This document shows, one piece after another, positions 3,076 to 3,597 of a stretch of 42,991 nt of DNA (position 1 is the stretch's first letter; each line of letters opens with the position of its first letter). The DNA comes from Escherichia phage hz69, in the sequence record ON556632.1. One strand, written 5' to 3'. Both the position numbers and the translations under genes were made by a program. The notes under the pieces were generated by a model, which saw only the letters and a list, made by a program, of their open reading frames with translations, searched no databases and was not told the DNA's origin.

Positions 3076-3597
3076 ATGTTAGAGAAATTCTTAGTATTAC
3101 TGGAACGTTTCGTAGTTGCACATGAACTGATTGCTGCGAACAGTGCACGCCGTACTGAACTGCCGAAGGCTATCACTGCGCAATATGGTAAAGACGTCGA
3201 CAGTGGTGTTGCAGAAACTGCAACAATCACGCCTACTGTTGTAAAAGAAGAAACAAAAGAAATCCCGGTTGAAGGTGAAGACGTAGTTGACACCAAACCG
3301 GCAGAAGAAGAAGAGAAGCCTAAACGCAAGCCGCGTAAAGCTAAAGTCGAGGAACCTACGCCAGAACCGGAAGAAGAGAAACAAGAAGTCGACTACCAGT
3401 CTCTGCGTGACCAGATTCAGGCTATCGACGATGCGATTAACGAAGGTCCGAGCGATGCCGCGTGTGATGATTCCGATGAACTGCTGGAAGAGTTCACCGG
3501 TAAGAAGATGAAGATTGCCGCGATTAAAGACGAAGACCTGGCCGAATACCTGAAACGCCTGACGGCAATCAAGAACAAGTATTTCGAAGAAGAATAA
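3076..3597 (+). CDS. highly acidic, E/K-rich early protein (173 aa)
   Basis: First gene after P1; strong RBS; hydrophobic N-terminus then long acidic low-complexity region (EEEEKPKRKPRKAKVEEPTPEPEEEKQE). Confidence 0.7.
   Translation: MLEKFLVLLERFVVAHELIAANSARRTELPKAITAQYGKDVDSGVAETATITPTVVKEETKEIPVEGEDVVDTKPAEEEEKPKRKPRKAKVEEPTPEPEEEKQEVDYQSLRDQIQAIDDAINEGPSDAACDDSDELLEEFTGKKMKIAAIKDEDLAEYLKRLTAIKNKYFEEE

What the first reader, a model, noticed from the sequence alone, without database searches (positions are those of the whole stretch)
3076..3597. Strongly expressed acidic early protein, possible DNA mimic or host-takeover factor
This is the first gene after the best sigma70 promoter in the window, with a strong RBS. 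It is followed by an attenuator hairpin (3604-3625) that would raise its expression above downstream genes. The protein is E/D/K-rich low-complexity with a hydrophobic N-terminus. Abundant acidic early proteins in phages are often DNA mimics (Ocr, ArdA-like anti-restriction) or nucleoid-directed factors.
Basis: inference. Interest (0 to 1): 0.5.

Follow-up and report, generated by a model that had tools for sequence, protein, structure and literature searches.

The report
Abundant acidic partner protein of phage replication genes
This highly expressed acidic early protein is real, but it looks like a conserved, uncharacterised core part of the phage's own DNA replication and recombination gene set, not an Ocr- or ArdA-type anti-restriction DNA mimic.

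Summary
ORF 3076-3597 encodes a 173-aa protein (pI 4.6, net charge -18). It follows a joint-best sigma70-like promoter and an AGGAG site, and a GC hairpin comes right after its stop codon. That hairpin keeps its position, with different stem sequences, in distant relatives. Codon bias ranks the gene 5th of 57 ORFs.

The window is a Kagunavirus-like siphophage and the protein belongs to PHROG 3127 (function unknown). It has three parts: a near-invariant N-terminal amphipathic helix, a variable mixed-charge disordered linker with a basic motif, and a confidently modelled acidic three-helix domain.

It is a core gene. About 640 phage records carry it, against 653 with a closely related polymerase. 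It always heads the operon HTH repressor | this gene | orf90 | DUF2800 exonuclease | gp2.5-like SSB | PolA.

Its C-terminal domain is remotely homologous to the gene just upstream of the DUF2800 exonuclease in APSE, YeP6 and Streptococcus and Phocaeicola phages, and to the first operon gene in a Vibrio phage. There the domain is not acidic.

There is no sequence or fold match to Ocr, ArdA or Gam. Published data show that phages carrying the family are sensitive to restriction.

Best reading (about 0.4): a stoichiometric adaptor of the exonuclease/SSB/polymerase machinery. A host-directed DNA mimic, for example against RecBCD, remains possible (about 0.2).

The parts
3016..3044 (+). Sigma70-like early promoter TTGACA-17-TATAGT. 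Its spacer holds a palindrome (AATAG 3026-3030 / CTATT 3035-3039) that overlaps the -10 element.
   Evidence: Scores 11/12, joint best in the window. It is one of only three TTGAC-N-TATAGT sites, and all three share AATAGnnnnCTATT. The same promoter precedes the gene in 27 of the 70 related loci checked, 26 viral contigs and phage Henuyfy11N.
3063..3067 (+). Shine-Dalgarno AGGAG, 8 nt upstream of the ATG.
   Evidence: Read directly from the sequence.
3076..3597 (+). CDS of the 173-aa acidic protein, a member of PHROG 3127.
   Evidence: ORF list. phrog_3127 match at E = 7.5e-68 over the full length. 2359 close homologues. pI 4.56.
3076..3147 (+). N-terminal amphipathic helix, residues 1-24 (MLEKFLVLLERFVVAHELIAANSA). 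It is the most conserved segment and is probably an oligomerisation or docking helix.
   Evidence: L8, E10, R11, F12, V13, A15, H16, E17 and A20 are invariant across 61 distinct nucleotide versions, with many synonymous codon changes. Helical in both models. The heptad pattern has polar residues almost only at b/c positions, and the segment is not a membrane span. A 59%-identical helix is attached to a different protein body in the distant phage contig L071.
3148..3387 (+). Disordered mixed-charge linker, residues 25-104. It contains the conserved motif EIPVEGEDVVDTKPA.
   Evidence: pLDDT is mostly below 50 here and no secondary structure is predicted. The linker carries insertions and deletions even among close relatives. 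Across 90 homologues it is 31-98 residues long, with about 14 K/R and 18 D/E.
3316..3345 (+). Conserved basic short motif KPKRKPRKAK (residues 81-90) inside the linker. Some homologues have an AT-hook-like version (KRGRKP, PRGRAG).
   Evidence: Invariant within the genus. Versions such as TRKPR, KRTRK and TRTRK recur in the most divergent members.
3388..3585 (+). Acidic three-helix C-terminal domain, residues 105-170 (helices 107-123, 127-141 and 152-170).
   Evidence: AlphaFold2 with a diverse alignment gives pLDDT of about 86-92. The last 68 residues carry a mean net charge of -12 (range -4 to -20) in 90 homologues. Remote homology to pre-exonuclease proteins of other phages is shown.
3586..3597 (+). 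Acidic C-terminal tail EEE plus the stop codon. Homologues end in YYEIED, YYELED, YFELED or YYDAE.
3605..3623 (+). GC hairpin (GCGGCC TTCT GGCCGC) followed by TTT. It is probably a leaky terminator or an element that stabilises the mRNA 3' end.
   Evidence: RNA fold of -16 kcal/mol. The position is conserved with different stem sequences across relatives. Codon optimality drops sharply in the next gene.
2736..2951 (-). Divergently transcribed 71-aa Cro/CI-type HTH regulator. It is the likely binder of the promoter palindromes (inference).
   Evidence: Pfam HTH_3 at E = 3e-13. Synteny is conserved in relatives.
3641..3913 (+). orf90 (PHROG 4965, function unknown), the conserved next gene.
4187..5449 (+). 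DUF2800 / PD-(D/E)XK exonuclease (Cas4-like), ending in ...EEDLE. It is a candidate partner.
   Evidence: Pfam DUF2800 at E = 5e-67 and phrog_69. Conserved [DE]DL C-terminal tail.
5540..6172 (+). gp2.5/Enc34-type ssDNA-binding and annealing protein, with an acidic run followed by an Arg-rich end (DDLEDDEEDEAPRRERRRRG). It is a candidate partner.
   Evidence: Pfam Enc34_ssDNA-bd and phrog_112. The Arg-rich tail is seen only in loci that carry PHROG 3127.
6231..8504 (+). Family A DNA polymerase, the last core gene of the operon.

Best explanation
ORF 3076-3597 encodes an abundant, non-enzymatic, modular accessory protein of the phage's own replication-recombination module. That module comprises a DUF2800 Cas4-like exonuclease, a gp2.5-type ssDNA-binding/annealing protein, a family A polymerase and a helicase-primase.

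Shown:
- It is transcribed first from a strong, probably repressor-controlled early promoter. A conserved hairpin follows the stop codon, and codon optimality drops sharply in the next gene.
- It is a core gene of Guernseyvirinae, Dhillonvirus and their relatives.
- Its C-terminal three-helix domain belongs to a wider family. That family is encoded immediately upstream of the DUF2800 exonuclease in unrelated phages of Proteobacteria, Firmicutes and Bacteroidota. In the Vibrio phage it is the first operon gene, one gene further upstream.

Inferred:
- The hairpin keeps the protein's output above that of the downstream enzymes.
- The invariant N-terminal amphipathic helix self-associates or docks onto a conserved partner.
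- The long mixed-charge linker gives reach and multivalency, and its basic motif may touch DNA.
- The C-terminal domain binds a module partner, most likely the exonuclease and/or the SSB.
- In this lineage the domain and its tail became strongly acidic in step with an Arg-rich extension on the SSB tail. The protein would then act as a stoichiometric adaptor or chaperone that couples or regulates the exonuclease, the annealing protein and the polymerase. This would resemble the acidic tails of T7 gp2.5 and gp4, and the exonuclease-binding three-helix C-terminal domain of lambda Red-beta.
For: 1. Core gene. tblastn finds it in 485 phage records, plus 155 Dhillonvirus records found with the Dhillonvirus homologue. 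Together that is about 640, against 653 records whose PolA is at least 60% identical.

2. Fixed synteny down to 30% identity. The order is HTH | this gene | orf90 | exonuclease | SSB, with PolA following in the 8 of 18 loci where it was detected, and it holds in 15 of 18 distant loci. Two of the rest are truncated contigs with the same order. A Dhillonvirus and Klebsiella phage 37P2 show it as well.

3. Distant contig L071. A protein bearing the same N-helix sits directly before an exonuclease (23% identical) and a gp2.5-like SSB, while PolA lies on the other strand.

4. Remote homology of the C-terminal domain.
- Profile-profile comparison against the pre-exonuclease protein of APSE, YeP6 and Xenorhabdus gives 83% probability and E = 8e-6, matching C-terminus to C-terminus.
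- A combined HMM searched against 314 ORFs from seven independent loci puts three ORFs on top: the ORF directly upstream of the exonuclease in Streptococcus phage 315.6 and Phocaeicola phage BD26P3, and the first operon gene (one gene further upstream) in Vibrio phage 1.075.O. Their E-values are 8e-6 to 2e-5, and the next hit is at 0.05.
- The same position and the same helix-linker-helical-domain layout occur in Staphylococcus phage phi7401PVL, Enc34 and Rhodobacter phage RcExplorer.

5. A host range spanning Gram-positive, Gram-negative and Bacteroidota bacteria argues for a phage-internal partner.

6. Acidic-tail network.
- The helicase-primase, the exonuclease and orf77 all end in EDLE. 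A [DE]DL tail persists in relatives whose helicase-primase is only 27% identical.
- In Enc34 the primase, ORF3 (the positional analogue), the exonuclease and the SSB all end in (D/E)n-EV.
- Acidic tails of T7-type SSBs bind the polymerase and the helicase-primase and compete with ssDNA (established knowledge; summarised in PMC5686142).

7. Every PHROG 3127 locus has an SSB that ends in an Arg-rich stretch after its acidic run. SSBs outside that clade do not.

8. Codon optimality ranks the SSB 2nd and this protein 5th of 57 ORFs, which fits two abundant proteins acting in matched amounts.

9. Some homologues carry a tandem duplication of the C-terminal domain (P0135, P0151, P0155), as expected for a binding module.
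Against: - No interaction has been shown. No complex could be modelled with the tools available.
- This protein's own tail (YFEEE) lacks the aliphatic residue of the EDLE tails.
- The pairing of an acidic domain with an Arg-rich SSB tail rests on a single clade, so it counts as one evolutionary event.
- The N-helix is more conserved than any phage protein in the module: about 80% identical where PolA is 62%, and 59% identical where PolA is 30%. This could equally point to a highly conserved host target or to self-association.
- Homology to the Staphylococcus, Enc34 and Rhodobacter analogues is not statistically supported.
Confidence: 0.4

Rival explanations
1. A host-directed acidic DNA mimic that protects the incoming linear genome, in the manner of lambda Gam or T7 gp5.9 inhibiting RecBCD. 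Alternatively, a mimic that titrates a host DNA-binding protein such as a nucleoid protein.
For: - It is made early and in quantity.
- The C-terminal domain carries a mean net charge of -12 over 68 residues, and this is conserved across the PHROG 3127 clade.
- Its position just before an exonuclease and an annealing-protein gene mirrors gam-bet-exo of lambda (established knowledge).
- No other Gam-like gene is annotated in the carefully annotated relative Bas73.
- Kagunavirus phages show variable sensitivity to the P2 Old system (PMC11990801). Old is thought to sense RecBCD inhibition (PMC8594841).
- The N-helix is more conserved than any phage protein, as expected if it binds a conserved host target.
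Against: - There is no sequence or fold similarity to Gam, gp5.9, Abc2, Ocr or ArdA.
- The homologous C-terminal domain is near-neutral in APSE, YeP6, Vibrio and Streptococcus phages (net charge -3 to +1 over the last 60 residues). Charge mimicry therefore cannot be the ancestral function.
- Homologues occur in a Streptococcus and a Phocaeicola phage, and a positional analogue in a Staphylococcus phage. By general knowledge these hosts use AddAB-type enzymes instead of RecBCD.
- Half of the protein is a disordered mixed-charge linker, unlike the compact rigid mimics known so far.
- Old sensitivity is shared by many small siphoviruses, so it is not specific to this family.
Confidence: 0.2
2. 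A DNA-associated architectural or replication-initiation factor. The basic AT-hook-like motif in the linker would bind phage DNA (an origin or DNA ends), the N-helix would oligomerise, and the acidic domain would auto-regulate or recruit the replisome.
For: - A conserved basic motif (KPKRKPRKAK, TRKPR, KRGRKP) sits in an otherwise variable linker.
- The K/A/P-rich blocks resemble those of histone H1-like bacterial proteins. One family member gave a weak Pfam HC2 hit at E = 0.01.
- The layout (N-terminal oligomerisation helix, linker, C-terminal domain) recalls H-NS-type proteins and phi29 p16.7 (from my own knowledge).
- It is the first gene of the replication operon.
Against: - The protein is strongly acidic overall (net charge -18).
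- The basic motif is short, and no DNA-binding fold is detected.
- Analogues in other lineages lack an obvious equivalent motif.
- The helicase-primase could recognise the origin itself (inference).
Confidence: 0.12
3. A regulator of host RNA polymerase or of the phage's temporal programme. As the first product of an early operon it could act as an anti-terminator or a shut-off factor.
For: - It is the first gene behind a strong promoter in a divergent repressor/operator region, and a terminator-like hairpin follows it.
- The phage has no RNA polymerase of its own in the annotated relative.
- Acidic three-helix modules such as sigma70 region 1.1 act on RNA polymerase (from my own knowledge).
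Against: - There is no similarity to any known RNA polymerase-binding phage protein.
- In relatives such as Bas73 it is not the first gene after the promoter.
- In APSE and YeP6 the homologue's stop codon overlaps the exonuclease start.
- The family tracks the exonuclease/SSB pair, not promoters.
Confidence: 0.08
4. An Ocr/ArdA-type anti-restriction protein that blocks type I restriction-modification (or BREX) by mimicking B-form DNA.
Against: - No match to any Pfam family, which as I know Pfam-A includes Ocr and ArdA, in 24 diverse members scanned at E up to 5.
- No PDB sequence or fold match.
- Kagunavirus phages are reported as highly sensitive to restriction-modification systems, and Dhillonvirus phages as sensitive to type I and II systems (PMC11990801; PMC8594841). 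Bas73 and the Dhillonvirus phages carry the gene.
- It is a core gene with fixed synteny, not a variable accessory gene.
Confidence: 0.03

Closest known systems
PHROG 3127 (phage protein family of unknown function). Some GenBank records label members '13.88 kDa late protein', after Salmonella phage MB78 (UniProt Q9T1Z8).
   Same: Full-length profile match at E = 7.5e-68. The Dhillonvirus homologue matches the same profile at E = 7e-53. The MB78 entry is the top match among predicted viral structures, at 75% identity.
   Different: The family has no assigned function. The 'late protein' label conflicts with the gene's place behind an early sigma70-type promoter at the head of the replication operon. 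The MB78 entry has only 123 aa, so it is probably a truncated ORF call (inference).
Pre-exonuclease proteins of DUF2800/DUF2815 modules: the APSE 'conserved hypothetical protein', YeP6 QCW23586, Streptococcus phage 315.6 SpyM3_1446, Phocaeicola phage BD26P3_00024 and Vibrio phage NVP1075O_70.
   Same: The C-terminal three-helix domain is homologous: hhalign gives 83% probability and E = 8e-6, and hmmsearch gives E of about 1e-5. Several share an N-terminal helix that starts M(S)LE..., a disordered linker, and a position just upstream of the exonuclease. The Streptococcus and Phocaeicola N-termini differ. In the Vibrio phage one gene lies between it and the exonuclease.
   Different: In those proteins the domain is near-neutral (net charge -3 to +1 over the last 60 residues, against -9 to -18 here). 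The APSE/YeP6 group has an extra middle domain. Their functions are also unknown.
Acidic C-terminal tails of T7-type replisome proteins (gp2.5 SSB and gp4 helicase-primase).
   Same: The protein has an acidic C-terminal end, in an operon whose helicase-primase and exonuclease carry a shared acidic tail motif (EDLE here, DEV in Enc34). In T7 such tails bind the polymerase and the SSB cleft (PMC5686142).
   Different: Here the acidic element is a folded three-helix domain plus a 3-residue tail on a separate small protein. It is not a disordered tail on the SSB or the helicase. No binding has been shown.
Lambda Red-beta C-terminal domain, a three-helix bundle that binds lambda exonuclease (PDB 6m9k).
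   Different: The match is no better than matches to many designed bundles, and there is no sequence similarity. In lambda the domain is fused to the annealing protein.
Lambda Gam and T7 gp5.9 (RecBCD-inhibiting DNA mimics); T7 Ocr and plasmid ArdA (type I restriction inhibitors).
   Same: All are early, abundant and acidic. The gene also sits beside recombination genes, as gam does.
   Different: There is no sequence or fold match. Half of this protein is disordered. Its homologues in other lineages are not acidic. Phages carrying it are sensitive to restriction.

Membership tests
PHROG 3127 | Full-length match to the family profile | tested here: met
   E = 7.5e-68, residues 1-173 against profile positions 1-177 of 178.
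Ocr (T7 gp0.3) | Sequence match to the Pfam Ocr family | tested here: not met
   The window protein gave no Pfam hit apart from a chance-level Cep57 match at E = 0.059. None of 24 diverse members matched at E up to 5. I take Ocr to be part of Pfam-A from my own knowledge.
Ocr (T7 gp0.3) | Elongated, rigid, all-helical dimer that imitates bent B-form DNA | tested here: not met
Ocr / ArdA | Protects the phage or plasmid from type I restriction | not testable with these tools
   Indirect evidence from the literature. Phages carrying the family are reported as highly sensitive to restriction-modification systems (PMC11990801) and, for Dhillonvirus, to type I and II systems (PMC8594841).
ArdA | Sequence match to the Pfam ArdA family or to solved ArdA structures | tested here: not met
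   Searches gave no match.
Lambda Gam / T7 gp5.9 (RecBCD inhibitors) | Sequence or fold similarity to Gam or gp5.9 | tested here: not met
   No Pfam or PDB sequence match. No Gam or gp5.9 chain among the fold matches.
Lambda Gam / T7 gp5.9 (RecBCD inhibitors) | Binds and inhibits RecBCD | not testable with these tools
   The only clues are circumstantial: the gene's position next to the exonuclease and annealing-protein genes, and the variable Old sensitivity of Kagunavirus phages.
Pre-exonuclease C-terminal domain family (defined here) | Profile-level homology of the C-terminal, roughly 60-residue helical domain | tested here: met
   hhalign A2 against A3 gave 83% probability and E = 8.4e-6. 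With the combined HMM, the top three of 314 ORFs were the Streptococcus and Phocaeicola ORFs directly upstream of the exonuclease and the first operon gene of the Vibrio phage (E = 8e-6 to 2e-5). The Staphylococcus, Enc34 and Rhodobacter analogues were not significant.
Pre-exonuclease C-terminal domain family (defined here) | Encoded upstream of, and on the same strand as, a DUF2800 exonuclease and a gp2.5-like SSB | tested here: met
   Window and all related loci examined. In this clade one small gene (orf90) lies in between.
T7-type acidic-tail replisome clients | Acidic C-terminal tail shared with the SSB or helicase-primase of the same phage | tested here: inconclusive
   The tail here is YFEEE, whereas the helicase-primase, exonuclease and orf77 end in EDLE. 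Homologues end in YYEIED or YFELED. In Enc34 the positional analogue shares the exact tail type of the primase, exonuclease and SSB.
T7-type acidic-tail replisome clients | The tail binds the DNA polymerase or the SSB cleft | not testable with these tools
   No tool for predicting complexes was available.

The most novel reading that the evidence does not exclude
The protein represents a previously unrecognised third component of the DUF2800 (Cas4-like exonuclease) and DUF2815 (gp2.5-type annealing protein) phage recombination/replication system. This component would be widespread across phages of Proteobacteria, Firmicutes and Bacteroidota. It would be a multivalent scaffold built from an oligomerising helix, a disordered linker and a small binding domain. 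The scaffold would couple the exonuclease to the annealing protein, doing in trans what the Red-beta C-terminal domain does in lambda. In Guernseyvirinae and Dhillonvirus it would have evolved into a self-directed nucleic-acid mimic that gates the phage's own Arg-tailed SSB.
Probability: 0.2. Interest if true: 0.65.

Novelty: new variant of a known kind. Interest (0 to 1): 0.42.

Why it matters
The DUF2800/DUF2815/PolA module is one of the commonest replication-recombination cassettes in tailed phages. The exonuclease alone matched 1418 phage records here. These include phages considered for therapy (Kagunavirus, Jerseyvirus, Dhillonvirus), the APSE phages of aphid symbionts, and a Panton-Valentine leukocidin-encoding Staphylococcus phage.

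A protein that is expressed at SSB-like levels, is a core gene and always travels with the exonuclease is probably needed for the module to work. Yet it is annotated everywhere as 'hypothetical' or, misleadingly, as '13.88 kDa late protein'.

Identifying its partner would complete the parts list of this module. That could matter for recombineering tools built on these exonuclease/annealing-protein pairs, and for engineering these small phage genomes.

The gene should not be listed as a candidate anti-restriction gene.

Tried and rejected
- Sequence searches gave nothing beyond PHROG 3127. Pfam and NCBIfam were negative. So were PDB searches by single sequence and by profile; the only profile hit, an archaeal seryl-tRNA kinase at E = 0.009, falls in the low-complexity region.
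- An exhaustive profile search of 1.84 billion cluster representatives found only 36 clusters, all of the same family. No fusion to a known domain emerged.
- Two apparent fusions of the N-helix to other domains are probably artefacts. P0156 carries an AFOR_C match, and P0144 comes from a 515-bp contig. I judged both to be likely assembly chimeras or fragments and discarded them.
- The first structure model, built on a shallow alignment, was poor (pLDDT 49). The second, built on a diverse alignment, was good only for residues 105-170.
- I tested whether the linker carries the same [DE]DL motif as the replisome tails. The motifs EGEDVVD and EDDLDDE occur in many homologues but not all, so I dropped this as a defining feature.
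- hhalign comparisons with Enc34 ORF3 and with the Staphylococcus analogue were not significant.
- The one Kagunavirus transcriptome paper (PMC12645636) has coarse time points and does not report this gene individually.
- Literature searches for MB78, for Jerseyvirus escape mutants and for the DUF2800 module found nothing on the function of this protein.
- A membrane-anchor reading of the N-terminus was rejected. It has invariant charged residues, and its highest Kyte-Doolittle mean is 1.28.
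Full report
**What the window is.** Megablast of 2700-4200 matches 445 phage records, the best being Kagunavirus isolates. PolA is 99.9% identical to that of Kagunavirus LM08P2. The window is therefore a roughly 43-kb small siphophage of the subfamily Guernseyvirinae.

**The observation.**
- ORF 3076-3597 (+) encodes 173 aa, 19.5 kDa, pI 4.56, with 44 D/E against 26 K/R.
- TTGACA-17-TATAGT at 3016-3044 scores 11/12. It ties with 9110 for the best site in 1-40000. Only three TTGAC-N-TATAGT sites exist in the window, against 0.09 expected by chance.
- AGGAG lies 8 nt before the ATG.
- The hairpin at 3605-3620 followed by TTT folds at -16 kcal/mol (z = -1.7), which is weak taken alone.
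- In the 70 or so related loci, a GC hairpin plus a short T run nearly always sits directly after the stop codon, with at least five different stem sequences: GCGGCC/GGCCGC, GCCCCGG/CCGGGGC, GCCCTGG/CCAGGGC, GGTGCCCTC/GAGGGCACC and CCGGCGC/GCGCCGG. A Dhillonvirus has one as well, and so does Enc34 ORF3, a positional analogue whose homology is not shown.
- The fraction of E. coli-optimal codons is 0.678, rank 5 of 57 ORFs. The major capsid protein ranks 1st and the SSB 2nd. The next gene downstream ranks 53rd.
- I count the observation as confirmed, including the inference of high expression.

**Anatomy of the protein.** Alignments of close and distant homologues and two AlphaFold2 models show three parts.
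1. Residues 1-24 form an amphipathic helix, MLEKFLVLLERFVVAHELIAANSA.
   - L8, E10, R11, F12, V13, A15, H16, E17 and A20 are invariant across 61 distinct nucleotide versions, while their codons vary freely. The constraint therefore acts on the protein, not on the DNA.
   - Polar residues fall almost only at heptad positions b and c. The segment is too polar for a membrane span.
2. Residues ~25-104 are disordered.
   - The linker varies in length even within the genus. Across 90 homologues it has mixed charge, with about 14 K/R and 18 D/E.
   - It contains two conserved short motifs, EIPVEGEDVVDTKPA and the basic KPKRKPRKAK.
3. Residues 105-170 form a three-helix bundle, with pLDDT of about 86-92 when a diverse alignment is used.
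   - The last 68 residues carry a mean net charge of -12 in 90 homologues.
   - The protein ends in YFEEE. Homologues end in YYEIED, YFELED or YYDAE.
   - Some homologues duplicate this domain in tandem.

**Database identity.**
- The only significant match is PHROG 3127, of unknown function (E = 7.5e-68).
- Pfam, NCBIfam and PDB sequence searches are negative, both for the window protein and for 24 diverse members.
- An exhaustive profile search of 1.84 billion representatives finds only 36 clusters, all of this family.
- Among predicted viral structures, the search returns family members, including '13.88 kDa late protein' of Salmonella phage MB78. That entry is the source of a label copied into many GenBank records.

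**Distribution and context.**
- tblastn finds the gene in 485 phage records, mostly from Salmonella and Escherichia, with a few from Serratia, Klebsiella, Raoultella, Enterobacter and others.
- Dhillonvirus phages have a diverged homologue. It matches phrog_3127 at E = 7e-53, its annotated start is probably 60 codons too far upstream, and it occurs in a further 155 records.
- The total is about 640, against 653 records whose PolA is at least 60% identical. This makes it a core gene.
- In 15 of 18 distant loci checked the order is HTH regulator (opposite strand) | this gene | orf90 | DUF2800 exonuclease | gp2.5-type SSB, with PolA following in the 8 of 18 loci where it was detected. This holds down to 30% identity. 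Two of the others are truncated contigs with the same order. The same holds in Klebsiella phage 37P2 and a Dhillonvirus.
- The typical accessory-gene clusters of tiny ORFs lie elsewhere in the genome.
- In the very distant viral contig L071 (PolA 30% and exonuclease 23% identical), a protein starts with a 59%-identical N-helix but has a different body. It sits directly before the exonuclease and a gp2.5-like SSB, while the polymerase is on the other strand.

**A wider family.** I examined the gene upstream of the DUF2800 exonuclease in unrelated phages.
- In Enc34, YeP6, APSE-8, Vibrio phage 1.075.O, Staphylococcus phage phi7401PVL and Rhodobacter phage RcExplorer there is a small protein with an N-terminal helix (often starting M(S)LE...), a charged or proline-rich linker, and a C-terminal helical domain. 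The Streptococcus 315.6 and Phocaeicola BD26P3 proteins have the linker and the C-terminal domain but a different N-terminus. The C-terminal domain carries a recurring motif, hydrophobic-x-x-L-L-x-x-[FY]-G-A-K-x-L-x-x-V-x-x-[DE]-x-[LF]-x-x-[FA]-[IV].
- Profile-profile comparison of the PHROG 3127 alignment with an alignment of the APSE, YeP6, Arsenophonus and Xenorhabdus group gives 83% probability and E = 8.4e-6. It aligns C-terminal domain to C-terminal domain.
- An HMM of the two groups combined was searched against all 314 ORFs of at least 50 aa from seven independent loci. The three ORFs on top were the one directly upstream of the exonuclease in the Streptococcus and Phocaeicola phages and the first operon gene (one gene further upstream) in the Vibrio phage (E = 8e-6 to 2e-5). 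The next hit was at E = 0.05.
- The Staphylococcus, Enc34 and Rhodobacter proteins rank next but are not significant. They remain positional and architectural analogues only.
- In these other lineages the domain is near-neutral. Net charge over the last 60 residues is -3 in APSE, -1 in YeP6, +1 in Vibrio and -1 in Streptococcus, against -9 here and -18 in Dhillonvirus. Acidity is therefore a trait of this lineage, not the defining property of the family.

**Clues to partners.**
- In the window the helicase-primase, the exonuclease and orf77 all end in EDLE. A [DE]DL C-terminal tail persists on the helicase-primase and the exonuclease in relatives where the helicase-primase is only about 27% identical.
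- In the relative Bas73, exact EDLE ends occur only on these three of 81 proteins. Acidic C-termini cluster in this operon.
- In Enc34 the primase, ORF3 (the positional analogue), the exonuclease and the SSB all end in (D/E)n-EV.
- In T7-type systems the acidic tails of the SSB and the helicase-primase bind the polymerase and compete with ssDNA for the SSB cleft (established knowledge; summarised in PMC5686142).
- Every locus that carries PHROG 3127 has an SSB whose acidic run is followed by an Arg-rich end: RRERRRRG, RPRRRSR or PRKRRRR. SSBs outside that clade end in plain acidic or hydrophobic tails.
- The SSB and this protein are both among the five most codon-optimised genes.
- These points suggest that the acidic domain and tail work with the phage's own SSB, exonuclease and polymerase. 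They do not show it.

**Against the anti-restriction reading.**
- Homology and fold searches are negative.
[quoted passage not shown] - Bas73 carries an intact homologue, and so do Dhillonvirus phages.
- An effective Ocr/ArdA-like function is therefore unlikely.

**What stays open.**
- Old is thought to sense RecBCD inhibition, and the gene sits where gam sits in lambda. A Gam-like role cannot be excluded.
- Three points speak against it as the family's function: the near-neutral homologues, the homologues in a Streptococcus and a Phocaeicola phage, and the long disordered linker.
- The extreme conservation of the N-helix relative to every phage protein is unexplained. It fits self-association, or binding to something more conserved than the phage proteins.

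**Verdict.**
- The feature is real and is probably highly expressed.
- The best-supported reading, at about 0.4, is an abundant non-enzymatic adaptor or regulator of the exonuclease/SSB/polymerase module. It belongs to a broader, unnamed family of pre-exonuclease proteins.
- A host-directed mimic stands at about 0.2, a DNA-architectural role at about 0.12, a transcription role at about 0.08 and an Ocr-like role at about 0.03.
- Interest is moderate. This is an uncharacterised but ubiquitous part of a very common phage replication cassette, and clear experiments could settle its function.

Noticed in passing
window 384-401, 2701-2718 and 5432-5449 (protein C-termini); related loci L013-L075: Three proteins of the early region end in the same four residues, EDLE: orf77, the helicase-primase and the DUF2800 exonuclease. 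A [DE]DL C-terminal tail is kept on the helicase-primase and the exonuclease in relatives as low as 27% identical. In Enc34 the primase, ORF3, the exonuclease and the SSB all end in (D/E)n-EV. This looks like a shared docking peptide for a common hub, possibly the polymerase by analogy with T7.
   Followed up: partly
window 3016-3044, 5454-5482 and 9110-9138 (+): The only three TTGAC-N-TATAGT promoters in the window (0.09 expected by chance) share a palindrome, AATAG-N4-CTATT, that overlaps the -10 element. They precede this gene, the SSB gene and an 84-aa ORF at 9173. This is probably a common operator for one repressor, for which the divergent 71-aa HTH protein at 2736-2951 is a candidate.
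   Followed up: partly
window 6100-6172 (SSB C-terminus); all PHROG 3127 loci: The gp2.5-type SSB ends with an acidic run followed by an Arg-rich stretch (DDLEDDEEDEAPRRERRRRG). This is unlike the SSBs of Enc34, APSE, YeP6 and the Vibrio, Staphylococcus and Streptococcus phages, which end in acidic or hydrophobic tails. The Arg-rich end occurs together with the acidic version of the pre-exonuclease protein.
   Followed up: partly
GenBank records of relatives (e.g. PV696613.1, L001 3376-3894): The product name '13.88 kDa late protein' is copied from a 123-aa entry of Salmonella phage MB78 (Q9T1Z8). It is misleading for a 156-178-aa protein encoded at the head of an early operon.
   Followed up: partly
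L075 3045-3734 (Escherichia phage PaulFeyerabend, bas15_0048): The annotated start of the Dhillonvirus homologue is probably about 60 codons too far upstream. The conserved N-helix begins at the internal Met (MFEQIVNLITRG...), downstream of a TTGACA-type promoter at about 2999.
   Followed up: no
L002 / L076 (phage Bas73), 33678-34137 of PQ850603.1: In Bas73 the divergent HTH repressor seen in the window is absent. Two small same-strand ORFs, one of 75 aa ending in TEGDGE, lie between the helicase-primase gene and the homologue. The regulatory region is therefore exchangeable while the gene itself is kept.
   Followed up: no
window 3895-4056 (+): A 53-aa ORF (PHROG 31152) lies between orf90 and the exonuclease gene and overlaps the end of orf90. 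It also ends in an acidic tail (VERVEE). It is conserved and annotated in Bas73.
   Followed up: no
Jerseyvirus records (e.g. NC_019539.1): PolA of several Salmonella Jerseyviruses matches in two pieces spanning about 3.1 kb, and one record annotates an intein. The window's PolA (757 aa) has no such insertion.
   Followed up: no
P0127 and P0214/P0223/P0232: Frameshifted versions occur in public assemblies, both of the PHROG 3127 protein (within the A-rich EEEKPKRK region) and of the Staphylococcus analogue. They could be sequencing errors in homopolymer runs or natural variants.
   Followed up: no
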